Shown here piece after piece: positions 18,393 through 57,243 of a stretch of 64,000 nt of DNA. The first letter of the stretch is position 1, and each line of letters starts with the position of its first letter. The stretch lies in assembly GCA_051313645.2 (NCBI GenBank), contig JBNRSN020000011.1:166966001-167030000 (forward strand). Reading direction: 5' to 3'. The DNA is from Centroscyllium fabricii. Taxonomy: Eukaryota. Both the position numbers and the translations under genes were made by a program. Below the pieces are notes generated by a model. It worked only from the letters and a program-made list of their open reading frames with translations. It had not been told where the DNA came from and did no database searches.

Positions 18393-18569
18393 TCTTTTTG
18401 CGAGCCCCCAGCTTCATTGAAACGGGTGCACTACCGCGGGTTTTGACAGAGAGCCAGCGCGCAAATCTTTTGAGAGTTGGAGGGAGCTTTCCAGAACATT
18501 CGGGAAAGCTTCCAACGGTTATATTTGAACGTTTTTTTTGACCGTTTAGTCAGTCTGCTGCTTGAATCT

Positions 18570-20320
18570 TGTAAGGAGCGTGCGCCGTATATTTTATTGT
18601 ACGACTTGGGGTCCGTTACTGCCTTGCGCTAGCAGTCCGCTAGGCCTCGCGCAATAACCTCCTCCCCCGCGAGCGGTTCGAATCGCTCACCCTTTACGGT
18701 TCTAGACGCTGGACTTAGGTGCAGGAAGAGAGAGAGAGACGAGATGGATACCGATTGGACTCAGATTTCAGACTCGAATAAAAGTTTGTAAAGTTGGAAG
18801 GTTTTTATTACACCAAGAGATATATTTACAGCAGTAAGGATAAAGGTTTATTACACTAAGAGATACATTTACAGCAGTTAGGTTGTATTTCATCAGAGTG
18901 ACACAGTATGATACACCAACAATTGTTTCCCAAACAGATATATATATATGTACATACACAGATAACTTATGGGATGGGGAACGCACGGCACAACGTAAAT
19001 CGGGGCAATGACTCTATAAATTCACCCCAAATAAACCACCCTTCCCTCTATTGCCTAGCTATGTCCAGGTGTGTAGGATCGAGGCACATGCTCACCACTC
19101 GGTAATACTCGGGATCTGCTACGAAGTTCCTCGCTTCCTCGGCTGCAGCGTCGGTCGTCACGTGGCTGTGGAAGATTCGGGAGTCCACTTGTTGTCTTCT
19201 CCCTTTGGGCGGCGGTCGCTCCTGCTCGGGCTGGTCCCGGACGGGTTCCTCGAGGCTGCTCTATCTCCTCGCACCAACCGCACCGTCTCCCTGGCTGAAC
19301 CGGACCCTGGGGTATGCCGATCCTGCCCTCTCAAGCCGAACTGTAACGGGCTGCTAGCCTAATTGCTCTCCCACTCTTCGAACGCTAGTTTATTTGCAGT
19401 GTTCACCAAGATGCTTTACCACTGGGCCTCCCAACAACCAACTACCTCACCAGCAATGGTTTTCCAATGCGATACTGCCCTGACCCAACTCTGCTGTCCT
19501 GCCAGAGCCTTCACCCTGCTTGCCCTGCACCCAGAAAGCTGAACTGGAGTCTTCGAGAAAAACAGCCCACCCAAAGTCACTGCTAGACCTCACCGCTTCA
19601 AGAGGTCGCCTCCACGAGTCGAGAGAGAGAGATCCAAGAGCCTTCTCCAAGAGCTCTTTCCTTGCGATTCTACAGAGCTAAGAGAGACCTCACCGCTTCA
19701 AGAGGTCGCCTCCACGAGTCCTAAGTCATAAGAGAGCTGAGAGCTAAGAGAGAGAATTCTAGAAATGTGCTGCCAGTTATACCCCAAATGTTGAATGCCT
19801 AATGTCTTTCCCATTAGGGCCTGTATTGTGTGTAGAAAGCGGTTACTGCACTCCTTTGTCCAGCCAAGCCTGCCGGTAATAGTTTTGATGGTGGCTCTAA
19901 CTTCTCCGGTTAGAGTCCCATTGTTTTCAAGGGTGCTAATCGCTTTATGCTCGAAGGGTATACAATTTCTGTAGCTGGTTAAACGGGCCAGCTGCTTCGT
20001 ATTTGCAGTTGTTTTGGGTGCTTATTTAAACTGGGTGCATTTCTTTGTCGGGCTAATCGGTTTCTAAAGGGCAGGCTATTTATTCACAGGTTTAACAGCG
20101 CCTTTATGTCTGGTTTCTTCGCGGGCTTTTCGAGTTGAGTTTTAGTTTCGGTTTTGCACTGTGCCATGTGGTCCGGCGGCCATCTTGGAGGCCCCTTTTC
20201 TCTGACCAGGCCGCAGCCTGTCTTGTCTGTCATTGTTCAAATAAAAGAAAATATGTATACTCCATCCTTCGTTTCTGGTCTTTGTGAATCCGTTTTGACA
20301 GGGAATATTGCGACCTTACA
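18570..20320 (-). repeat. 3' LTR (1751 bp)
   Basis: direct repeat of 27712-29445; 7-bp terminal inverted repeat; AATAAA on the minus strand at about 18593, 18805 and 18847; TATAAC at 19776-19781. Confidence 0.97.
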
Positions 20321-20330
20321 GTCCCTCCTG
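20321..20330 (-). promoter_or_regulatory. polypurine tract
   Basis: CAGGAGGGAC directly before TGTAAGG of the 3' LTR. Confidence 0.7.
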
Positions 20331-21163
20331 TTGATTAGCATAACCCTGCTTAGCGAATCAATTAAGAAAGGTTGAGCAAGATTCCCGATTCTCCACACCT
20401 CAACTCTCCTGGTTACCTAAATTAACTCTTGCCCCATGACACATGCGGTTCCCATTCCCTTTGATCAACCTCGCATTGCCTTTACCCTGGGCAATCGTAT
20501 ATTTACACCACCATGTCTTACACCTCCTGGTTCCTTCCACGTCTGCCAGGCCGATGCCTTCGTCTCCACCTGTTTATATCATTTATTAACTTAAAAGAGA
20601 CATCACACAACCATCAGGAAAATATAAACACACACATTTCTCCCCTCATGAATCCCCCCATTTGTCCCAAAGTTTGTACAGTGTTCTGGCGGTCTTCTGC
20701 AGCCACCACCATCGGCTCGCTGGGATCTTCATATCCCTCAACGGAAGTAAGTCCTTTTACCGATGATAGCGCCGGTCCTGGGTGCGATGGTCTTGATCCG
20801 GGGCACAGAAAACCAAGTCTCTCCACAAGCAGATTCCGACGTGCTGGGATGCTCCATTGGGTCCGTTCCCAGCCGTCCTTACTCCCCGGTGTGGCCCCGG
20901 CAGGCCAGTCCATCTTTGATGCCCGCACGCGTCATCAGAATCCCCGCCTCTCTGGGTTCTGTAATCAAACAAAGGGGTTGCCGGCCTCCCAAGAGCGCCT
21001 GGCTGTGGTGAGATGTGCACGCCTCCTGGACAGATCCCATATTACCTAAACACTCCCCTTTACCTTTAACAAATATTCAAACTTAATTCGGGCTACTCCC
21101 TTGACACTACTAAACTTATTTTTCATTCATTATATACAGTGCCGCCTCTCCCAGGCGGCCTAC

Positions 21164-24100
21164 CTATCCCCTGTCAGGGTCGTAGTGGGCCGCTCCCCGT
21201 GGCGGTGCCTTGCTGACCCTTCCCTTTGGTTCCCCGCAGCCTGTCGCTGCTTTTAATTCTCCGCAGCCTGGTGCTGCTTGTCGGGGGTGGATAATTATCC
21301 TTTTGCGGGGGCTTTTCCTGTTCCTGAGGGCATATGACGGTTCTGGCCAAGCTTTCCTGGGCGGGGGTACCCTTTCCGATCGACGGAGGGTGCCTTTAGG
21401 TACTGCTCCCTGGGCCGACGAACTGAGGACCGAGCCAGGTTGTGCTGCAGCCTGTGACTCCCTCACAGCTGCCAGCACCAACCCCTCTCCCTCCAGCTTC
21501 GCTTCCCTGGGACCGAGAGCCCCCTGGGTCGATGACCTGAGGACCGGGCCAGGTCGTGCTACAGCCTGTGACCCCGTCACATCTGTCAGCATCGACGCTC
21601 CCTCCTCTCGCCTCGTCGACGAACTGAAGGCCGGGCCGGATCGTGCTGCAGCCTGTGACTCCTTCACAGCTGCCAGCACCGACCCTCCCTCCTTCAGCTT
21701 CGCTTCCCCGGGACTGGGATCTCTTGCGGCTTCTGACCTCACCTCACCTATCTCCTCAGGTGGTGAGTCTCCGCCTGCTATCCCTACCTCGTCGGCATTC
21801 GAGTCGAGAACGGAACCCCCGTCCTCCGACCCCTCCTCCTCCCCTGTGATTGACTCTAGCACTGGGTCGCATAGGTCAATCAGGTCCAACCCTTGGTCGG
21901 GTTGGCCACTCGGATCCAACACTTGGTCGTGTTGGTCCATCGGATCCAACACTTGGTCATGTTGGTCCGGCTCCTCCCCATCCGAATCCCACACAGCACG
22001 AGAGACCCTCCTCTCCTCCATCGGGGCCTCTCCTTTCACGCAGGCTACTTTACCACCTGTACTTGGCTGGGCGTTCCCACTCACAGGGCTTGCCCCTGTG
22101 GTCGACCCCTGCGTGCCCGACTTATACATTTTACATTGGTTTATATGGAACCACTTTGTGCGTCGGGGCACCTTCACCGCATAAACCATGGGGCTTGCCT
22201 TATCTACAATGCTGTAGGGCCCCATGTACAGTGGCTCTAAACTCCCGACCCGGGCATAGTTCCTCACCATGACCAGGTCTCCCACTTCCCATTCTTGCGT
22301 TCTTCGGGGCTCCAGCAACAGCTTGTTCCCCTGATGCTGTCTGCCCATGTTCCCTGCTGCCTGCTCGTGTACTCGCTTTAGGTGCTCGAACAGATTTTGG
22401 GCAAACCTGTCCTTCTTTACCTCCTCTAGCTGTCCTTCCGTGAGCACCGGAGCTAGTACATGAGTGGGGGTACGCATGGCCCTTCCAGTCATTAGCTCGT
22501 GCGGGGAATATCCCGTACTTTTCGACTGGCTGGCCCTGATCCCCATGAGGATTAAAGGCAGGATCTCCGCCCATTTCTGGGGCGAGCCCATCGCCTCTTT
22601 CCTCAACCGTTCCTTAAGGGTACGGTTCATGCGTTCCACAATTCCTGACGACTGGGGGTTGTGCGCTACGTGCCATTTTCCTTCAATGCCTAAGAGCATG
22701 AGGGTGTTCTGCATGACCTGGCCGGTGAAGTGACTCCCCTGGTCGGACTCCACAAAACGGGGAAGTCCCCACCGTGAGAACACCTCCCGGACCAAAATCC
22801 TGGCAGTACCTAAGGCCGTAGCCGTCCTACAGGGGAAAGCTTCTACCCATTTGGAGAACACGTCCACCAGGACGAGACAATATTTATAGCCTCCCTGGGC
22901 GGTGGGTAAGGGCCCTATATAGTCGACTTGGATCGACTGCCACGGTCCCTCCACCCTCCTGACGTGCCCCATCTGCGCTTTCCTTCTTTGGGGGTCTGGG
23001 TTGTTCGCAGCGCACACCAGGCAGCTGGCGCAGAACTCGCGGGCATCTTCCCTGAGTCCCAGCCACCACCCTGCCTGCTCCACCCGTTGCCATGTAACCT
23101 CTGGCCCGGGGTGCCCTGCTCCTGGACCCTCGTGGGCCAATTGGAGAAATTCCCTCCTGTGCTGCTGCGGCACAACCCACTGTTCCTCCCTGAACAACAT
23201 TCCTTCCTTAACGGAGAGGGTCGCCCTATTGTATGGGCCCTCTACCTGCTTGTCCTCACTAATAGCTTTGAGGACAGCTTTTAAAACGGGATCCTGGTTT
23301 TGGACCGTTTTGAGATCCAAAGGCAAGGGAACCCTGGGGCGGTTCCCCTCCATATCCCGGATCGCTGCCACAGGTCCGGACCCGTAGGGGTCCCAGAAAG
23401 TGCCTTCACGAGCACCCTCCTTGGCCAGCGCATCCGCCCGCTGATTGCCTCCCCCACGTGGTTCCGTGGAAGAGTGAGCCTTCACCTTGTGGATGAAGAT
23501 CTCCCCTTCTTCCCCTACTGCTGCTAGGATCTTCTCCAACAAGGGCTTTACCGTTAATGGCCGCCCGTCCGCGGAAGTGTACCCGCGACGTGACCATATG
23601 GCCAGATACTCCGTGCACGAGTTGCACGTAAACATACTATCGGAGCAAATTGTGTACGGGGTTGGGAAGGTCTCGGGGTGGGTTACCACGTACGCCACCG
23701 CCGACAGCTCGGCCTGCTGTGCGCTCATGGTGCGGGGAAGCTTAACCGCCAAGGCAATGTCTGCCGTAGGGTCAAAAATCCCGCAGCCCGTGAGTCGTTC
23801 GCCAGCCACCACCGTGCTGGAACCATCAACATAGATCTCGCGGCCCGTGGGATGTATCCCGGCTCGCAGACCTATGTCCACCTCCCATACCCCCTCCACG
23901 GAACACCGATGGGCCGTTCCGGGGTACATCAAATTTGCTGCGAGCTTAGGCTCGCACAAACCCTCCACTTTTAAATCCATTTGGGACAACAGAAGAGTCC
24001 AGCGCGCAATTCTCGCGCTGCTCACGGTCCCATCCTTTATCCTCCCATCCAGGAGCATCCTGGTGGGCGTGTGGTGGGTGAGGAGAGTAATGGGAGAGGT

Positions 24101-25786
24101 TCCCGTGAAGATTAATGATCTCTTCACGGCCCAATGCGTGGCTAAGAGATGCCGTTCGCAGTTGGAGAACCCCCTCTCCACCTCCGTGAGTACCCTTGAG
24201 GAATACACCACCGGTCGCAGCTTGCCGTGCCGCTCTTGGAGCAACACCGCGCTCAAGCTGTCCTCGCCGGCTGCTACCTCCAGGGAAAACTCCTTCCCCC
24301 CCTCTATGGCCCCCAGGGCTGGCGCGGTTTGCAAGTCCCTCTTCAACTTTTCAAACGCCGCCTGGCAACCCTCATCCCATGACCACCCAACTCCCTTATG
24401 TAAGAGTCGGAGCAGCGGAGCTGCTGTGGCTGCATAGTCCTCAATGAAGTCTCTGCAATAGCCGGTCAATCCCAAAAAGGACCTCACACCCTTTACGGTG
24501 GTCGGGATCGGTAGCTCCTGTACCGACTCCCTCCTGGCCTTATCTATGGCCCTTTCCCCCGCGCGGATGGTCAGACCCAGAAACTTTACTTCTGTCTGGC
24601 CAATCCGTGCCTTCTTCGGGTTTATTTTAAAACCCTTCCTAGCCAGTAATTCCAGCAGCTCGCCTAGCAATGGCAAGTGCTCATCCCTCGTGTCCGTAAA
24701 CAGGAGTAAGTCGTCCACATACTGCACTACCTGATTGGGCTGACTAAACTCCTTTAAACTCCCTGCCATACACTGGTGGAAAATACTGGGGCTGTTGTGG
24801 AAGCCTTGCGGCAAACAATTCCACGTGTACTGCTGCCCTTTAAACGTAAAGGCAAACTTGTACTGATCCTCCCTCCGCAGCGGGATGGACCAAAACCCGT
24901 TGGAAATATCCAACACCGTAAACACCGTGGCGGAAGCGGGAATACTCCCGATCAGGTCGGCAACTGCTGCCACCGTGGGCGCGCAGGCGGGGATGTTACT
25001 GTTGAGGACCCGATAATCCACCGTGGCTCTCCATGAGTTGTCTGGCTTCCGTACGGGCCACAACGGAGAGTTCACATGGGTGGCTATCGGCCTCAACACG
25101 CCCTGCCGCACCAGTGAAGACATCGCTGTCTCCAGATCGGACTCCGCTTCCTTGGGGAAGTTATACTGTTTCTGGGGTCGGGACATGGGATCCCCCTGTA
25201 CGCTAACCTCAAACCCTAAGACCCTCCCGCAATCGTGCTTGTGGGTCGCAAAGGCGTTTATATTCCACGTTACGGCCGCCTGCATGTCGGCCGGAACCCC
25301 TTTGGACAAACTATCGAGGTCGTAACCTCCGGACGGCTTCATGGTGCATAGGGTCCCCTTTTCTTCTTCCTCCCCTATGACCACAACTTCACCTCTTCCA
25401 CTTTCGGCTGCCCATAAACAGTGGTTCCTTAAGTCGATCATGATCCCGTGTGCTCTCAGAAAATCTGCTCCTACTATACCTCTGCCACCTCCTTCTTCCC
25501 ATTTCAGTAGGATGCACTCCCAAGTGGTGTGGAGCGCTCCTAACCGAATGGAGAGTGGCCTAGAGCGCGCGCCCCCCTGTTCCTTGCCCGTAAACCCTGC
25601 TAATGCAAAAGGGACTCCGGTGGACATTGGGGAATTAAACGGCTTCTCTGTATGGATCACGGTGCATGAGGCCCCCGTATCCAACAGATAATTCCCCTCC
25701 TGTCTCTCCACCTCCATTTCCACCAGAGGTCTCCTCCATGCATCATAACGGAGCGGACACAGGTAAATGGGCAGCGCGGGTCTTAG
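21164..25786 (-). CDS. pol: Pol: protease, RT, tether, RNase H, integrase, C-terminal extension
   Basis: LLDTGA; LPQGFHNSP; YVDD (~24715); IYVDGS/SAQQAEL/SDS/KVKAH/GNQRADALAK; HHCC, DYIG, SDQG, ERMNR, GPY; frame is open from the gag stop onward. Confidence 0.97.
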   Translation of the reverse strand, partial: LRPALPIYLCPLRYDAWRRPLVEMEVERQEGNYLLDTGASCTVIHTEKPFNSPMSTGVPFALAGFTGKEQGGARSRPLSIRLGALHTTWECILLKWEEGGGRGIVGADFLRAHGIMIDLRNHCLWAAESGRGEVVVIGEEEEKGTLCTMKPSGGYDLDSLSKGVPADMQAAVTWNINAFATHKHDCGRVLGFEVSVQGDPMSRPQKQYNFPKEAESDLETAMSSLVRQGVLRPIATHVNSPLWPVRKPDNSWRATVDYRVLNSNIPACAPTVAAVADLIGSIPASATVFTVLDISNGFWSIPLRREDQYKFAFTFKGQQYTWNCLPQGFHNSPSIFHQCMAGSLKEFSQPNQVVQYVDDLLLFTDTRDEHLPLLGELLELLARKGFKINPKKARIGQTEVKFLGLTIRAGERAIDKARRESVQELPIPTTVKGVRSFLGLTGYCRDFIEDYAATAAPLLRLLHKGVGWSWDEGCQAAFEKLKRDLQTAPALGAIEGGKEFSLEVAAGEDSLSAVLLQERHGKLRPVVYSSRVLTEVERGFSNCERHLLATHWAVKRSLIFTGTSPITLLTHHTPTRMLLDGRIKDGTVSSARIARWTLLLSQMDLKVEGLCEPKLAANLMYPGTAHRCSVEGVWEVDIGLRAGIHPTGREIYVDGSSTVVAGERLTGCGIFDPTADIALAVKLPRTMSAQQAELSAVAYVVTHPETFPTPYTICSDSMFTCNSCTEYLAIWSRRGYTSADGRPLTVKPLLEKILAAVGEEGEIFIHKVKAHSSTEPRGGGNQRADALAKEGAREGTFWDPYGSGPVAAIRDMEGNRPRVPLPLDLKTVQNQDPVLKAVLKAISEDKQVEGPYNRATLSVKEGMLFREEQWVVPQQHRREFLQLAHEGPGAGHPGPEVTWQRVEQAGWWLGLREDAREFCASCLVCAANNPDPQRRKAQMGHVRRVEGPWQSIQVDYIGPLPTAQGGYKYCLVLVDVFSKWVEAFPCRTATALGTARILVREVFSRWGLPRFVESDQGSHFTGQVMQNTLMLLGIEGKWHVAHNPQSSGIVERMNRTLKERLRKEAMGSPQKWAEILPLILMGIRASQSKSTGYSPHELMTGRAMRTPTHVLAPVLTEGQLEEVKKDRFAQNLFEHLKRVHEQAAGNMGRQHQGNKLLLEPRRTQEWEVGDLVMVRNYARVGSLEPLYMGPYSIVDKASPMVYAVKVPRRTKWFHINQCKMYKSGTQGSTTGASPVSGNAQPSTGGKVACVKGEAPMEERRVSRAVWDSDGEEPDQHDQVLDPMDQHDQVLDPSGQPDQGLDLIDLCDPVLESITGEEEGSEDGGSVLDSNADEVGIAGGDSPPEEIGEVRSEAARDPSPGEAKLKEGGSVLAAVKESQAAARSGPAFSSSTRREEGASMLTDVTGSQAVARPGPVLRSSTQGALGPREAKLEGEGLVLAAVRESQAAAQPGSVLSSSAQGAVPKGTLRRSERVPPPRKAWPEPSYALRNRKSPRKRIIIHPRQAAPGCGELKAATGCGEPKGRVSKAPPRGAAHYDPDRG

Positions 25787-27709
25787 TCATTGGGTTTCCA
25801 CGTGAGGGGCTGCGGTGCCTGCGGAACCGGTGGCCACCGCTGCCTTCCCCTGGGAAGCCATATACAACTTCATGGCCCCCAGCGTGGACTCAATCGTCTC
25901 GGGACTTAAAGTCGCCCCGGCACCTCCTGTGGGAGCGGGTGCTCGGGTTGGGGCTACCTTCCCCTGGGAAGTCATATAAAACTTCATGGCTTCCAGCATG
26001 GACTCAATTGTTTCGGGACTTAGAGTGGCGCCGGCACCTCCTGTGGGAGTGGGTGCTCGGGCTGGGGCTGCGGGAGCTCTTTCCTTGACCTCCCTCCACG
26101 GGGCTCTACAGTCTCTGCGCCAGTGGCCTGCCTTCCCGCATCTATGACATGTAGACTGCCCCGGGTTGCCCCCCTCCTGATACCACTCTCTCTGCGCTGG
26201 GGCGTTTGCGTTAGTCGCATACACCTTCCCCTTATCGCAGTGCATCACCGAACTCCTTGTATTTTTATACCCAACCGTGAGTCGGTTGAGGACCGTCTCC
26301 TCTGTGGTTAGAGCATCGGTGGGGTCAAACCACACCTTCGCCTGCTCTCTAACGGCGGGTAGGCTGTTGGCAACGATACACCGGAGCCACTGGGCTCTCC
26401 CGGCATCGCGCAAAACAGCCCGTGCAGGTACATCTGGGCAGCTGCGCTGATACACAGGCCACAGCCTCCCGGCGAAAACCCATGGGGGTTCTCCCTCCAT
26501 CTGCACGGTCCTACCCAGCCTTACAAACGGACCTTCATCGTCCATCCCTAATATTTCTAGGACCTCGTCCCGCAGGTCGTTATAACAATTCTCCCCCCTT
26601 TTGCTCTCGTCGGAGAGACACTGAAGGATAGAGCTATCCAACGAGAAAAGCAACATCCTGGCTTGCTCCCCTTCGTCACAGCCGTTAATTGCTGCGGCCT
26701 GTTCGACCTCTCTAAAATGCAGGGACGGATCGCCTGCTGCGGACAGCTTCTTGAAATGCCCTATCATGCTCCTTATCTGTTGCGAGCTATGGGGCACTAT
26801 AACCTCATTCAGGATGGGCCCGGGATCCCCAGCCGCAGTGTCGGGACCCCGCCTCGTCTCTCGAACCGGACACATGGGTGCCGGGTCTGGATTCCCCATT
26901 TTGGGAACCTTTGCCGCCACCTCCTCTCTGTCCCCTTTCTCCCATGCTTGCGTATAGTGGGGTGATCGCGCGGGGAGCGCGGGGGCTGGTGCCTCCGGCG
27001 CCCTCCTTCTTAACTTTGGCTTCGGGGGTTCCTGAGCTACCTTTACCTCACCCACCGATGGGTCGATGAGGCACACCAGACCATTTGACCTGTTCAGGGC
27101 CTCCCTGAGGTCCTGAATCTCCTTTAAACAAGCGCCATGATCGGCGTCCTCATATTTGGCCTCGAGGGACATTTTGTATGCTGCCCTCATCCCCAGTAAA
27201 TCCTCCTCCTGTGCCTTCAATTGGCCACTTAGGCGGACGCACCTTTCCCTGAGCTTCCCTTCACTTGACATGGCCTCTACGACTTGTCTTTCTAGGAGCT
27301 CAACCCTAGCTTCATGGCGGTTGGTCTTCACCTGGCGCTCATTATTTAGAGCTTCTAGCGCGGTGATTAACCGCTGCCCCCCTGAGACCTTTTCCTCCAC
27401 TTCTAGGACTAACCCTTTTATCTGCGCGGTCTGCGCCGCAATCACCTGGTCCGAAAGCTGGACCTGCTTTTTATAACACATTAGCCATACGGCTTTTTCT
27501 ACGGCCTTTTTATGCCCCTTGCTACCCGTCCAACGGATAGCTGCATCCAGTGGGCGTTTGTCTGCCAACAGGTCCCCAATCCACTGCTTTGTTAAATTAA
27601 CTTTGCTGAATACATAATCAGCAATCCTTTCCTCCATTACGCTTCTTTTATTCAAGGCTGAGTCCAATATATCTCTCTCCTGCTGCCAACGTCCTGCCGC
27701 GGTCGCCAT
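25787..27709 (-). CDS. gag: Gag, 640 aa: N-terminal coiled coil, one CCHC knuckle, duplicated C-terminal 38-aa unit
   Basis: CHRCGKAGHWRRDC; position between PBS and pol; 114-bp repeat at 25851 and 25965. Confidence 0.92.
   Translation of the reverse strand: MATAAGRWQQERDILDSALNKRSVMEERIADYVFSKVNLTKQWIGDLLADKRPLDAAIRWTGSKGHKKAVEKAVWLMCYKKQVQLSDQVIAAQTAQIKGLVLEVEEKVSGGQRLITALEALNNERQVKTNRHEARVELLERQVVEAMSSEGKLRERCVRLSGQLKAQEEDLLGMRAAYKMSLEAKYEDADHGACLKEIQDLREALNRSNGLVCLIDPSVGEVKVAQEPPKPKLRRRAPEAPAPALPARSPHYTQAWEKGDREEVAAKVPKMGNPDPAPMCPVRETRRGPDTAAGDPGPILNEVIVPHSSQQIRSMIGHFKKLSAAGDPSLHFREVEQAAAINGCDEGEQARMLLFSLDSSILQCLSDESKRGENCYNDLRDEVLEILGMDDEGPFVRLGRTVQMEGEPPWVFAGRLWPVYQRSCPDVPARAVLRDAGRAQWLRCIVANSLPAVREQAKVWFDPTDALTTEETVLNRLTVGYKNTRSSVMHCDKGKVYATNANAPAQREWYQEGGNPGQSTCHRCGKAGHWRRDCRAPWREVKERAPAAPARAPTPTGGAGATLSPETIESMLEAMKFYMTSQGKVAPTRAPAPTGGAGATLSPETIESTLGAMKLYMASQGKAAVATGSAGTAAPHVETQ
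27691..27708 (-). promoter_or_regulatory. primer-binding site, tRNA-Arg(UCG)
   Basis: TGGCGACCGCGGCAGGAC, 3 nt from the LTR, complementary to the vertebrate tRNA-Arg-TCG 3' end GTCCTGCCGCGGTCG+CCA as recalled. Confidence 0.9.
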
Positions 27710-27711
27710 TC

Positions 27712-29445
27712 TGTAAGGAGCGTGCGCCGTATATTTTATTGTACGACTTGGGGTCTGTTACTGCCTTGCGCTAGCAGTCCGCTAGGCCTCGCGCAATAAC
27801 CTCCTCCCCCGCGAGCGGTTCGAATCGCTCACCCTTTACGGTTCTAGACGCTGGACTTAGGTTCAGGAAGAGAGAGAGAGACGAGATGGATACCGATTGG
27901 ACTCAAATTTCAGACTCGAATAAAAGTTTGTAAAGTTGGAAGGTTTTTATTACACCAAGAGATATATTTACAGCAGTAAGGATAAAGGTTTATTACACTA
28001 AGAGATACATTTACAGCAGTTAGGTTGTATTTCATCAGAGTGACACAGTATGATACACCAACAATTGTTTCCCAAACAGATATATATATATGTACATACA
28101 CAGATAACTTATGGGATGGGGAACGCACGGCACAACGTAAATCGGGGCAATGACTCTATAAATTCACCCCAAATAAACCACCCTTCCCTCTATTGCCTAG
28201 CTATGTCCAGGTGTGTAGGATCGAGGCACATGCTCACCACTCGGTAATACTCGGGATCTGCTACGAAGTTCCTCGCTTCCTCGGCTGCAGCGTCGGTCGT
28301 CACGTGGCTGTGGAAGATTCGGGAGTCCACTTGTTGTCTTCTCCCTTTGGGCGGCGGTCGCTCCTGCTCGGGCTGGTCCCGGACGGGTTCCTCGAGGCTG
28401 CTCTATCTCCTCGCACCAACCGCACCGTCTCCCTGGCTGAACGGACCCTGGGGTATGCCGATCCTGCCCTCTCAAGCCGAACTGTAACGGGCTGCTAGCC
28501 TAATTGCTCTCCCACTCTTCGAACGCTAGTTTATTTGCAGTGTTCACCAAGATGCTTTACCACTGGGCCTCCCAACAACCAACTACCTCACCAGCAATGG
28601 TTTTCCGATGCGATACTGCCCTGACCCAACTCTGCTGTCCTGCCAGAGCCTTCACCCTGCTTGCCCTGCACCCAGAAAGCTGAACTGGAGTCTTCGAGAA
28701 AAACAGCCCACCCAAAGTCACTGCTAGACCTCACCGCTTCAAGAGGTCGCCTCCACGAGTCGAGAGAGAGAGATCCAAGAGCCTTCTCCAAGAGCTCTTT
28801 CCTTGCGATTCTACAGAGCTAAGAGAGACCTCACCGCTTCAAGAGGTCGCCTCCACGAGTCCTAAGTCATAAGAGAGCTGAGAGCTAAGAGAGAGAATTC
28901 TAGAAATGTGCTGCCAGTTATCCCCCAAATGTTGAATGCCTAATGTCTTTCCCATTAGGGCCTGTATTGTGTGTAGAAAGCGGTTACTGCACTCCTTTGT
29001 CCAGCCAAGCCTGCCGGTAATAGTTTTGATGGTGGCTCTAACTTCTCCGGTTAGAGTCCCATTGTTTTCAAGGGTGCTAATCGCTTTATGCTCGAAGGGT
29101 ATACAATTTCTGTAGCTGGTTAAACGGGCCAGCTGCTTCGTATTTGCAGTTGTTTTGGGTGCTTATTTAAACTGGGTGCATTTCTTTGTCGGGCTAATCG
29201 GTTTCTAAAGGGCAGGCTATTTATTCACAGGTTTAACAGCGCCTTTATGTCTGGTTTCTTCGCGGGCTTTTCGAGTTGAGTTTTAGTTTCGGTTTTGCAC
29301 TGTGCCATCTTGGAGGCCCCTTTTCTCTGATCAGGCCGCAGCCTGTCTTGTCTGTCATTGTTCAAATAAAAGAAAATATGTATACTCCATCCTTCGTTTC
29401 TGGTCTTTGTGAATCCGTTTTGACAGGGAATATTGCGACCTTACA
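27712..29445 (-). repeat. 5' LTR (1734 bp)
   Basis: differs from the 3' LTR by about 6 substitutions, a 1-bp indel and a 16-bp indel (by eye). Confidence 0.97.
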
Positions 29446-29529
29446 ATCTGAAGAACGAACATCGCAGACTGATGTAGTCTAGATCTCTGCCACAATTAAT
29501 TTGATTTATAATTAGAATTATAGAAAGTA

Positions 29530-35111: not shown

Positions 35112-38100
35112 GTCAGGGATCCAGGGCACCTTGGAACAGTGGATCCAAAACTGGCTTAGTGGCAGAAGGCAGAGGGTGATACATAGATACATAGATGATA
35201 GGAGCAGGAGTAGGCCATTCGGCCCTTCGAGCCTGCTCCGCCATTCAATGAGATCATGGCTGATCCTTCAGTTCAGTATCCCGTCCCTGCCTTCTCTCCG
35301 TAACCTTTAACCCCTTTTGCCTGCAGAAATATATCTAATTCCCTCTTAAATATATTCAATGAGCTGGCATCCACTGCCCTCTGTGGTAGTGAGTTCCACA
35401 GGTTCACCACTCTCTGGGTGAAGAAATTCCTCCTCATCTCTGTCCTAAATGGTTTAGCCCTTATCCTAATGGTCGAAGGTTGTTTTTGCGACTGGAAGCC
35501 TGTGTCTAGTGGGGTATCGCAGGGATCAGTGCTGGGTCCCTTGCTGTTTGTAGTCTATATTAATGATTTGGGTGTGAATGTAAAGGGTATGATCAGTAAG
35601 TTCGCTGATGACACGAAAACTGGTGGGGTGGTAGATAGCGAGGAGGGAAGCCTCCGTCTGCAGGACGATATAGATGGGTTGGTCAGATGGGCGGAGCAAT
35701 GACAAATGGAATTTAACCCTGAAAAGTGTGAGGTGATGCATTTTGGAAGGACTAACAAGGCAAGGGAATACACAATGAATGGTAAGACCCTAGGAAAGAC
35801 AGAGGATCAGAGGGACCTTGGTGTGCATGTACATAGATCCCTGAAGGCAGCAGGCCAGGTAGATAAGGTGGTTAAAAAGGCATATGGGATACTTATATTC
35901 TATGCCTCGGCTAATGAAGGCAAGAGCAGGGAGGTTATGATGGAGCTGTACAAAATGCTGGTAAGGCCACAGCTGGAGTACTGTGTGCAGTTCTGGTCAC
36001 CGCACTATAGAAAGGATGTTTTAACGAAGAGTGCAGGAGAGCATGCCGGGAACAGCACCAGGCATACCGGAAAATGAGGTGTCAACCTGGCGAGGCTGCA
36101 ACACAGGACTACTTGCATGCCAAACAACAGAAGCAACATGCGATAGACAGAGCTAAGCGATCTCACAACCATCGGATAAAATCAAAGCTCTGCAGTCCTG
36201 CCACATCCAGTCGTGAGTGGTGGTGGACTATTAAACAGTTAACAGGAGGAGGAGGCTCCAAAAATATCCCCATCCTCAACGATGGTGGAGCCCAGCACGT
36301 GAGTACAAAAGACAAGGCTGAAGCATTTGCAACTATCTTCAGCCAGAAATGCCGAGTGGATGATCCATCTCGGCCTCCTCCTGAGGTCCCCAGCATCACA
36401 GATGCCAGTCTTCAGCCCATTCAATTCACTCCACATGATGTCAAGAAATGGCTGAAGACACTGGATACTGCAAAGGCTATGGGCCCTGACAACATTCCGG
36501 CAATAGTACTGAAGACTTGTGCTCCAGAACTAGCTGCGCCCCTAGCCAAGCTGTTCCAGTACAGCTACAACACTGGCATCTACCCAGCAATGTGGAAAAA
36601 TCCCCAAGTATGTCCTGTCTACAAAAAGCAGGACAAATCCGACCCGGCCAATTACCGTCCCATCAGTCTACTCTCAATCATCAGCAAAGTGATGGAAGGT
36701 GTCGTCGACAGTGCTATCAAGCGGCACTTACTCAGCAATAACCTGCTAACTGACGCCCAGTTTGGGTTCCGCCAGGGCCACTCAGCTCCTGACCTCATCA
36801 CAGCCTTGGTCCAAACATGGACAAAAAGCTGAACTCAAGAGGTGAGGTGAGAGTGACTGCCCTTGACATCAAGGCAGCATTTGATCGAGCGTGGCATCAA
36901 GGAGCCTTGGCAAAGCTGAAGTCAATGGGAATCAAGGGGAAAACTCTCCATTGGTTGGAATCATACCTAGCACAAAGGAAGTTGGCTGTGGTTGTTGGAG
37001 GTCATTCATCTCAACCACAGGACATCACTGCAGGAGTTCCTCAGGGCAGTGTCCTAGGCCCAACCATCTTCAGCTGTTTCATCAATGACCTTCCCTCCAT
37101 CATAAGGTCAGAAGTGGGGATGTTCGCTGATGATTGCACACTGTTCAGCACCATTCGAGACTCGTCAGATACTGACGCAGTCCGTGTCCATATGCAGCAA
37201 GACCTGGACAACATTCAGACTTGGGCTGACAAGTGGCAAGTAACATTCGCACCACACAAGTGCCAGGCAATGACCATCTCCAACAAGCGAGACTCTAACC
37301 ATCTCCCCTTGACATTCAATGGCATTATCATCGCTGAATCCCCCACTATCAACATCCTGGGGGTTACCATTGATCGGAAACTGAACTGGACCAGCCATAT
37401 AAATACTGTGGCTACAAGAGCAGGCCAGAGGCTGGGAATTCTGCGGCGAGTGTCTCACCTCCTGACTCCAAAAAACCTTTCCACCATCTACAAGGCACAA
37501 GTCAGGAGTGTGATGGAATACTCTCCACTTGCCTGGATGAGTGCAGCTCCAACAACACTCAAGAAGCTCGACACCATTCAGGATAAAGCAGGCCGCTTGA
37601 TTGGCACTCCATCCACCACCTTCAACATTCACTCCCTCCACCACCGGCGCACTGTGGCTGCAGTGTGTACCATCTACAAGATGCACTGCAGCAACTCGCC
37701 AAAGCTCCTTCAACAGCACCTTCCAAACCCGCGACCTCTACCACTTAGAAGGACAAGGGCAGCAGACGCATGGGAACACCACCACCTACAAGTTCCCCTC
37801 CAAGCCACACACCATCCTGACTTGGACCTGTATCGCTGCTCCTTCACTGTCACTGGGCCAAAATCCTGGAACTCCCTTCCTAACAACATTGTGGGTGTAC
37901 CTACACCATACGGACTGCAGCGGTTCAAGAAGGTGGCTCACCACCATCTTCTCAAGGGCAATTAGGGATGGGCACTAAATGCAGGCCTAGCCAGCCAGCG
38001 ACGCCCACATCCCATCAATGAATAAAAAAATAAATGTGATTGCTTTGGAGAGGGTGCAGAGGAGATTCACTTGGATGTTACCTGGGCTGGAGCGCTTCAG

Positions 38101-56021: not shown

Positions 56022-57243
56022 AATTTTTTTTAATATATTCATTGATAGGATGTGGGCGTCACTGGCTGGCTAGGCCTGCATTTAGTGCCCATCCCTAATT
56101 GCCCTTGAGAAGACGGTGGTGAGCCGCCTTCTTGAACCGCTGCAGTCCATATGGTGTAAGTACACCCACAATGTTGTTAGGAAGGGAGTTCCAGGATTTT
56201 GGCCCCGCGACAGTGAAGGAGCGGCGATACAGGTCCAAGTCAGGATGGTGTGTGGCTTGGAGGGGAACTTGTAGGTGGTGCTGTTCCCATGCATCTGCTG
56301 CCCTTGTCCTTCTAAGTGGTAGAGGTCGCGGGTTTGGAAGGTGCTGTTGAAGGAGCTTTGGCGAGTTGCTGCAGTGCATCTTGTAGATGGTACACACTGC
56401 AGCCACAGTGCGCCGGTGGTGGAGGGAGTGAATGTTGAAAGTGGTGGATGGAGTGCCAATCAAGCGGCCTGCTTTATCCTGAATGGTGTCGAGCTTCTTG
56501 AGTGTTGTTGGAGCTGCACTCATCCAGGCAAGTGGAGAGTATTCCATCACACTCCTGACTTGTGCCTTGTAGATGGTGGAAAGGCTTTGGGGAGTCAGGA
56601 GGTGAGACACTCGCCGCAGAATTCCCAGCCTCTGGCCTTCTCTTGTAGCCACAGTATTCATATGGTTGGTCCAGTTCAGTTTCCGATCAATGGTAACCCC
56701 TAGGATGTTGATAGTAGGGGATTCAGCAATGATAATGCCATTGAATGTCAAGGGGAGATGGTTAGAGTCTCACTTGTTGGAGATGGTCATTGCCTGGCAC
56801 TTGTGTGGTGCGAATGTTAATTGCCACTTGTCAGCCCAAGTCTGAATGTTGTCCAGGTCTTGCTGCATATGGACACGGACTGCGTCAGTATCTGACGAGT
56901 CTCGAATGGTGCTGAACAGTGTGCAATCATCAGTGAACATCCCCACTTCTGACCTTATGATGGAGGGAAGGTCATTGATGAAACAGCTGAAGATGGTTGG
57001 GCCTAGGACACTGCCCTGAGGAACTCCTGCAGTGATGTCCTGTAGTTGAGATGAATGACCTCCAACAACCACAGCCAACTTCCTATGTGCTAGGTATGAT
57101 TCCAACCAATGGAGAGCTTTCCCCTTGATTCCCATTGACTTCAGCTTTGCCAGGGCTCCTTGATGCCACACTCTATCAAATGCTGCCTTGATGTCAAGGG
57201 CAGTCACTCTCACCTCACCTCTTGAGTTCAGCTCTTTTGTCCA
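56022..57243 (-). mobile_element. CR1-group LINE 3' part (same family as 36019-38033)
   Basis: ALDIKAAFDRVWH, GVPQGS; high identity to 36810-38030. Confidence 0.92.

What the first reader, a model, noticed from the sequence alone, without database searches (positions are those of the whole stretch)
25720..25795. Gag-Pol joined by a CAA-UGA-CUA read-through signal
Seen: the minus strand reads GAA ACC CAA TGA CTA AGA CCC..., and the same frame continues LRPALPIYLCPLRYDAWRRPLVEMEVE into the protease with no other stop (25786-25723 = 63 nt). Established: UGA-CUA is the leaky stop of alphaviruses and of mammalian UGA-CUAG read-through genes, while gamma- and epsilonretroviruses read through UAG. 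Inference: a ~2180-aa Gag-Pol is made by opal suppression, an unusual strategy for a retrovirus-like element.
Basis: partly seen in the sequence, partly recalled or inferred. Interest (0 to 1): 0.72.

Follow-up and report, generated by a model that had tools for sequence, protein, structure and literature searches.

The report
Endogenous retrovirus with leaky UGA stop
A young, intact retrovirus-like element, probably from a shark or ray, separates its structural and enzyme genes by one inherited UGA stop that ribosomes most likely read through now and then; this trick is already known from fish and frog retroviruses and from yeast retrotransposons, so only the exact signal in this lineage is new.

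Summary
In a 10.9-kb env-less LTR element (LTRs 98.7% alike, 4-bp target duplication), gag (640 aa) and pro-pol (1540 aa) share one frame with a single TGA between them, context CAA-TGA-CTA. The stop is inherited, not private: seven related Gag proteins (35-60% identical, three from a skate) end at the same place; all five junction types seen in public runs keep TGA-C while the codon before varies; the stop sits in the same column as snakehead retrovirus's UAG. The protease begins upstream of pol's first ATG, and the displayed changes there are synonymous (5 of 5), so that stretch is probably translated through the stop. Read-through itself is not measured. CAA is not conserved, CTA is kept in 4 of 5 types, and a predicted 220-nt stem is unsupported by sibling variation. 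'Unusual' is overstated: UGA gag-pol junctions are reported for SSSV, ZFERV, a toad ERV and XtERV-S, and GAA-TGA-CTA/CTG for fission-yeast Tj1-type elements. New is only the alphavirus-type UGA-CUA hexamer in an unclassified vertebrate retroviral lineage.

The parts
29446..29449 (-). Target-site duplication, left copy (4 bp, AGAT)
27712..29445 (-). 5' LTR (TG...CA termini)
   Evidence: 98.7% to 3' LTR over 1751 columns, 6 mismatches, 2 gaps
27691..27708 (-). Primer-binding site, 3 nt after the LTR; matches the 3' end of a vertebrate tRNA-Arg (isoacceptor identity recalled, no call)
25787..27709 (-). gag ORF, 640 aa from the first ATG (which overlaps the PBS; a second conserved ATG lies at 27637), ending in TGA
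   Evidence: 60% identical to Rhinoraja longicauda proteins
26105..26152 (-). Single CCHC zinc knuckle of Gag
   Evidence: Pfam PF00098, E 1.1e-4, above cut-off
25839..26069 (-). Tandem duplication (about 114-nt unit) at the 3' end of gag
   Evidence: table 5
25781..25792 (-). Read-through site CAA-TGA-CTA-AGA; TGA at 25789-25787
   Evidence: TGA-C in 5 of 5 junction types seen, CTA in 4 of 5
25562..25783 (-). Predicted extended stem-loop, +7 to +228 from the stop (unconfirmed)
   Evidence: sibling variants break 9 of 12 paired sites
21164..25786 (-). pro-pol ORF, 1540 aa, same frame as gag; first ATG only at residue 24 (25717)
25451..25738 (-). Aspartic protease (residues 17-112, catalytic D36); domain match starts before the first ATG
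   Evidence: Pfam PF00077 profile 2-95 of 101, E 8.7e-4, 20.0 bits against cut-off 20.7
24566..25054 (-). Reverse transcriptase core (YVDD)
   Evidence: PF00078 E 4e-35
23981..24379 (-). Degenerate RNase H (tether)
   Evidence: PF17919/PF17917
23411..23839 (-). RNase H
   Evidence: PF00075 E 4.1e-19
22124..23173 (-). Integrase (HHCC, core, SH3-like end)
   Evidence: PF17921, PF00665, PF24626
21164..22123 (-). About 320-aa low-complexity tail of Pol with internal repeats; no Pfam match
20321..20332 (-). Polypurine tract before the 3' LTR
   Evidence: sequence
18570..20320 (-). 3' LTR
18566..18569 (-). Target-site duplication, right copy (AGAT)

Best explanation
The element is a young, env-less endogenous retrovirus-like LTR element of an unclassified vertebrate lineage (host probably a cartilaginous fish; inferred from the nearest named relatives). 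On the full-length RNA most ribosomes stop at the gag UGA and release Gag; a few percent insert an amino acid from a near-cognate tRNA and go on to make a 2181-aa Gag-Pro-Pol, which sets the Gag:Pol ratio. The core signal is UGA plus C at +4, usually CUA (type II, alphavirus-like); the upstream CAA is dispensable and a 3' structure may or may not help. Shown: the layout, the inheritance of the stop, coding constraint just after it. Inferred: read-through itself, its level, and any role of RNA structure.
For: One stop in 2181 codons of an otherwise open frame in an element with 0.35% LTR divergence. Seven Gag relatives end 16-17 residues after the same motif: three Rhinoraja loci (60%), P0090 (45%), P0092/P0201/P0202 (35% for the two measured); no row at the stop or at CTA among the 40 best-supported of 90 difference rows; X17 record 13 spans the junction with 0 differences; loose ends show AAG-TGA-CTA (6 contigs X1, 1 contig X17), AAG-TGA-CTA-AAG with the preceding codons replaced (1 contig X1), CAA-TGA-CAT (2 contigs X20), and ACA before the stop in X20 record 20. 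Stop aligns with the UAG of the SnRV genome L001, 8 residues before the shared LCxL. Protease match starts at residue 17, first Met at 24, catalytic D at 36. Displayed variants: 5 of 5 synonymous between stop and first ATG (p 0.008 against a transitions-only null), 19 of 27 over +4..+408 (p 2e-4). UGA-CUA is the type II motif (PMC13517186 sec. 2.1) and gives about 2% read-through alone in cells for Sindbis (PMC3159437).
Against: No measurement of read-through, transcript or protein. One sibling type has UGA-CAU, not CUA. 50 of 90 difference rows were not shown, so sense-codon copies below roughly half of the depth are not excluded; X19 does not cover the stop. For protein-only relatives neither the stop's identity nor the pol frame is known. 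A coelacanth relative (P0008) is annotated as a fused Gag-Pol with Q in the stop column. In Tca2 the UGA junction alone did not direct read-through in a yeast reporter (PMC2194720 abstract), so layout does not prove mechanism. The synonymous counts use only displayed rows and related copies are not independent.
Confidence: 0.8

Rival explanations
1. Pol is made without read-through, from a spliced RNA that skips the stop (foamy-like or gag-pol splice) or by re-initiation/internal promoter, as partly seen in the Tca2 junction.
For: An AG lies 5 nt after the stop and a pyrimidine-rich tract follows; Tca2's junction holds a minor promoter (PMC2194720 abstract); no RNA data were available.
Against: The first in-frame ATG is 12 residues before the catalytic Asp and after the start of the protease match; the AG shifts phase between junction types (ends at +8 in the window, +9 in two sibling types); 0-frame alignment with the SnRV amber has no purpose under this model.
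Confidence: 0.1
2. The TGA is a decay product (e.g. CpG deamination of a sense codon) in a family that made one fused Gag-Pol.
For: Coelacanth P0008 is annotated as fused, with a sense residue in that column; minor variants were not all displayed.
Against: Gag ends at the same place in seven relatives down to 35% identity; TGA kept in all five junction types while flanks changed; no other stop in 2181 codons; no close fused relative among the 83 hits.
Confidence: 0.03
3. Read-through occurs but depends on an alphavirus-like long 3' stem-loop rather than on the codon context alone (a sub-case of the best explanation).
For: MFE stem +7..+228, z -3.7 for +15..+219, many pair probabilities above 0.9; such stems are common 3' of type II sites (PMC3159437).
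Against: The window was chosen after seeing the fold; 2 of 40 windows along gag-pol fold as well and the mean z is -1.7; +1..+160 alone gives z -0.2; 9 of 12 displayed variants at paired sites break the pair, 4 of 5 within one contig that also covers the partner; no pseudoknot found.
Confidence: 0.2
4. The UGA is bypassed by another recoding route (A-to-I editing or selenocysteine insertion).
For: UGA can be recoded by both in animals (established knowledge).
Against: The stop is unpaired in the predicted fold and its A has a 5' G, the neighbour ADAR disfavours (recalled); no SECIS was looked for; the conserved +4 C is explained by ordinary leakiness.
Confidence: 0.03

Closest known systems
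Snakehead retrovirus (SnRV; locus L001, named by motif match to the SnRV RT row in PMC7947760's supplement)
   Same: gag and pro-pol in one frame, stop in the same alignment column; one CCHC knuckle; Arg-type PBS (recalled); RT region 38% identical
   Different: SnRV uses UAG-GGC and has env and accessory ORFs; Gag similarity not significant; no supported clade with the window
SSSV (UGAAGA), ZFERV (UGACGA), Rhinella marina ERV (UGAAGU), XtERV-S (TGA)
   Same: Vertebrate retroviruses or ERVs with an in-frame UGA between gag and pol, presumed read through (PMC13517186 sec. 4.1.2; PMC8278194)
   Different: None has the UGA-CUA hexamer as listed (XtERV-S context not seen); different lineages; XtERV-S has YIDD, dUTPase, 5-bp TSD and env
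Fission-yeast Ty3/gypsy elements Tj1, Tcry1, Tosmo1-3
   Same: GAA-TGA-CTA/CTG strictly conserved between gag and pol; stop essential for Tj1 transposition (PMC10085805)
   Different: Metaviridae of fungi; here the RT lies on the retroviral side with a dual RNase H
Alphavirus nsP3-nsP4 type II read-through (Sindbis UGA-CUA plus extended stem-loop)
   Same: Same hexamer; a long 3' stem is predicted at a similar distance
   Different: Unrelated virus; stem here not supported by variation
Gamma-/epsilonretroviruses (MoMLV, WDSV)
   Same: Gag-Pol by stop read-through
   Different: UAG-G with pseudoknot; window lies outside their 100/99 clade; no pseudoknot found

Membership tests
Retrovirus-like ERV | LTRs with TG..CA, TSD, PBS, PPT | tested here: met
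Retrovirus-like ERV | PR-RT-tether-RNase H-IN (dual RNase H) | tested here: met
Retrovirus-like ERV | RT groups with retroviruses, apart from Metaviridae | tested here: met
   100/100 split, 22 against 6 outgroup rows; no foamy, ERV-L or Loki reference rows in that tree
Retrovirus-like ERV | env gene | tested here: not met
   no ORF over 110 aa on the coding strand between pol and the 3' LTR; no SnRV or MoMLV env match
Type II read-through signal | UGA-CUA or UGA-CGG | tested here: met
   CTA in 4 of 5 junction types
Type II read-through signal | conserved extended 3' stem-loop | tested here: inconclusive
Type II read-through signal | measurable read-through product | not testable with these tools
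   needs reporter, ribosome profiling or proteomics
Gamma-/epsilonretrovirus | UAG junction; RT within their clade | tested here: not met
SnRV-like (clade Huo) | RT clade with SnRV | tested here: inconclusive
   basal polytomy; SnRV joins other rows at 92/99; no AU test run
SnRV-like (clade Huo) | in-frame stop at the homologous column, one CCHC | tested here: met
SnRV-like (clade Huo) | Gag homology | tested here: inconclusive
   hhalign probability 9.6%, coiled-coil stretch only
Lokiretrovirus | RT signature (RCPFGY.NSP..F..F..KA type) and F-like env | tested here: not met
   window has CLPQGFHNSP; compared by eye with the Loki rows in supplement parts 67-68; no env
Lokiretrovirus | phylogenetic placement with Loki RTs | not tested
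   Loki sequences were not held as stored proteins
Class III ERV-L / XtERV-S | YIDD, dUTPase after IN, 5-bp TSD | tested here: not met
   YVDD, no dUTPase match, 4-bp TSD; features from PMC8278194

The most novel reading that the evidence does not exclude
An unclassified, deep-branching retroviral lineage of cartilaginous fishes carries a complete alphavirus-style type II cassette (UGA-CUA plus a functional ~220-nt extended stem-loop) at the position where SnRV has amber-G, showing that read-through at this column is ancient in non-frameshifting retroviruses and that whole signal modules are exchanged.
Probability: 0.2. Interest if true: 0.55.

Novelty: new variant of a known kind. Interest (0 to 1): 0.3.

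Why it matters
Read-through has been measured only in gammaretroviruses among Retroviridae; the 2026 review says it is unverified in epsilonretroviruses and lists four unclassified cases, none with UGA-CUA (PMC13517186). A high-copy, intact family with natural variation around the stop gives a ready comparative set for asking which bases matter and whether fish-type retroviral read-through needs RNA structure. It also warns annotators: gag and pol get called as separate genes, with pol truncated to a downstream Met and labelled 'NYNRIN-like'. It does not reveal a new mechanism.

Tried and rejected
No whole genome is held, so copies in the host could not be counted. No RNA holder listed; X20's RNA status is a guess; contigs showed no joint skipping the stop, which says nothing on splicing. 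Scans for close relatives' DNA found none: viral contigs (only SnRV, gamma/epsilon and other distant viruses), metagenome contigs (best segments 24-42% identical). Search for longer fused proteins with the junction query found 0 of 8000 candidates, weak evidence as even the skate Gag was missed. Single-sequence fold of the protease was unusable (pLDDT 37). Pseudoknot scan: none in +4..+120. Rejected: lokiretrovirus (suggested by the NYNRIN-like labels; RT signature absent), CAA as a required element, a compact hairpin right after the stop (z near 0). The first 84-row tree did not finish its careful search; one search is the tree relied on (28 rows; long-branch P0031 and P0083 and near-duplicate rows left out). 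ESM Atlas gave only generic retroelement Gag clusters. No tRNA gene in the window to check the PBS. Earlier-findings look-ups by sequence and place were empty.
Full report
Observation. The minus strand reads GAA ACC CAA TGA CTA AGA CCC, TGA at 25789-25787. Two long ORFs abut in one frame, 25787..27757 and 21164..25786. From the ATG at 27709 there are 2182 codons with stops only at codon 641 and at the end: Gag 640 aa, Gag-Pol 2181 aa.

The element. It spans 18570-29445 on the minus strand: two LTRs 98.7% alike over 1751 columns (6 mismatches, 2 gaps), TG...CA ends, a 4-bp target duplication, an 18-nt PBS three bases after the 5' LTR (tRNA-Arg type, recalled) and a purine tract before the 3' LTR. 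Six mismatches in 1734 compared bases is 0.35%, i.e. about 0.8 My at the mammalian rate or 8 My at the shark rate assumed in PMC4422223; either way young. Gag has one CCHC knuckle; Pol has protease, RT, tether, RNase H and integrase. There is no env ORF. The only Gag hit among 8000 scored candidates was a skate protein, 60% identical, so the host is probably a cartilaginous fish (inference). In a 28-row RT-tether tree the element falls on the retroviral side of a 100/100 split from Metaviridae, outside the gamma/epsilon clade (100/99), in an unresolved basal group with coelacanth and frog 'NYNRIN-like' Pols; it is not joined to SnRV with support. The tree holds no foamy, ERV-L or Loki references. 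The Loki RT signature is absent by eye, and Wang and Han found none in 3 chondrichthyan genomes. I leave it unclassified.

Is the stop inherited? Three of four members of the skate cluster end at the same place as the window's Gag; the fourth is cut short at 334 aa. P0090 (45%) and P0092, P0201, P0202 (35% for the two aligned) end one residue further from the same motif. For these proteins the stop's identity and the pol frame are unknown. DNA came from laying four of the 24 listed runs on 25380-25945. X19 does not cover the stop. Among the 40 best-supported of 90 difference rows none lies at 25784-25790; the lowest shown row has a share near one half, so I infer that TGA-CTA is the majority form in X1, X17 and X20, with minor forms not excluded. 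X17 record 13 crosses the junction with no difference. The 14 shown of 51 loose-end rows, read in register, reveal other subfamilies: AAG-TGA-CTA (6 contigs in X1, 1 in X17), AAG-TGA-CTA-AAG with the five codons before it replaced (1 contig in X1), CAA-TGA-CAT (2 contigs in X20); X20 record 20 has ACA before the stop. So TGA-C stands in 5 of 5 junction types, CTA in 4 of 5, CAA in 2 of 5. Further out, the SnRV genome (L001) has its UAG eight residues before the LCxL shared with the window, the same distance. A coelacanth relative is annotated as fused, with Q in that column; this is the one case against a universal stop.

Is the stretch after the stop translated? The Pfam protease match starts at residue 17 (profile position 2; score just under the cut-off), the first Met is residue 24 and the catalytic Asp residue 36; initiation at that Met would lose the RPLV strand, which is kept in coelacanth, SnRV and gammaretrovirus rows. 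The five displayed variants between the stop and that Met are all synonymous (p 0.008 against a transitions-only null), and 19 of 27 over the first 408 bases (p 2e-4); these are displayed rows only and copies are related. This favours entry from upstream, in frame.

RNA structure. A long stem from +7 to +228 is predicted, z -3.7 for +15..+219, resembling alphavirus extended stems (PMC13517186 sec. 4.2.4). Against it: the window was picked among 30 tried; 2 of 40 windows across gag-pol fold as well and the mean is -1.7; +1..+160 gives -0.2; 9 of 12 displayed variants at paired sites break the pair (for some the partner was not covered, but in record 20, which covers both arms, 4 of 5 changes in the +166..+186 arm break). 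No pseudoknot was found. Unresolved, leaning negative for the upper stem.

Mechanism. Most likely (0.8) programmed read-through: UGA followed by C is the leakiest natural stop; Sindbis UGA-CUA alone gives about 2% in cells (PMC3159437), enough for a Gag:Gag-Pol ratio. Shown: layout, inheritance, coding constraint. Inferred: the read-through, its rate, any helper structure. Rivals: spliced or separately initiated pol (0.1; Tca2's UGA junction failed to direct read-through in a yeast reporter, PMC2194720), decay of a sense codon (0.03), editing or selenocysteine (0.03).

Comparison with what is known. The 2026 review of animal-virus read-through lists UGA junctions for SSSV (UGAAGA), ZFERV (UGACGA) and a toad ERV (UGAAGU), and UAGGGC for SnRV; XtERV-S has TGA; Ovex1 an amber; fission-yeast Tj1, Tcry1 and Tosmo1-3 have GAA-TGA-CTA/CTG (I was led to that paper by earlier finding e1-7527795). 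Opal read-through at gag-pol is therefore known in vertebrate retroviruses, and the same context in LTR retrotransposons. My searches showed no paper on this family or on a UGA-CUA junction in a vertebrate retrovirus; the library lacks most subscription papers and Repbase/Dfam, where the family may be named.

What I saw of each paper: PMC7947760 abstract, text parts 1-2 of 4, supplement parts 1, 67, 68 and searched passages (file cut at 300 of 318 pages); PMC9040795 a term search with no hits; PMC8278194, PMC10435555, PMC6001957, PMC2717909, PMC10085805, PMC3159437 passages; PMC2194720 abstract; PMC13517186 abstract, passages, sections 2.1 and 4.2.4; PMC4422223 part 1 of 2. Figures (e.g. the XtERV-S junction) were not visible. 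Gao et al. 2003 not seen.

Verdict. Real, inherited, very probably a read-through site; a new variant of a known kind. Interest 0.3.

Noticed in passing
window 27691-27709 (-): The first gag ATG overlaps the first bases of the PBS, so the PBS is read as M-A-T-A-A-G. The same Met-Ala-Thr start, in frame and 24 codons before a second conserved Met, is seen in Rhinoraja P0003/P0006 and in P0092; P0090 differs. Which ATG is used is unknown.
   Followed up: partly
window 18570-20320 and 27712-29445: LTRs are long (about 1.75 kb) with internal 36-nt repeats and no ORF over 110 aa.
   Followed up: no
window 21164-22123 (-): Pol carries a ~320-aa acidic, repetitive tail after integrase with no Pfam match.
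   Followed up: no
window 25839-26069 (-): In-frame tandem duplication at the Gag C-terminus, absent from the skate Gag but present in contigs of all four runs laid (table 5).
   Followed up: partly
P0008 (Latimeria, XP_064407972.1): Related element annotated as one gag-pol protein with Q-G at the stop column, recalling SnRV's UAG-G context; could be a gene-model artefact or a copy without the stop.
   Followed up: partly
window 20321-21163: About 840 nt between pol and the 3' LTR without an env-like ORF; a 194-aa ORF lies on the opposite strand at 20465-21049.
   Followed up: partly
run X1 on window 25380-25945: 1853 contigs and very high summed depth point to a very high-copy family in that organism (not a copy number).
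   Followed up: no
window 36823-38034 and 56026-57237: Two 97% alike inverted copies of another 1.2-kb repeat, among many dispersed SINE/LINE-like repeats.
   Followed up: no
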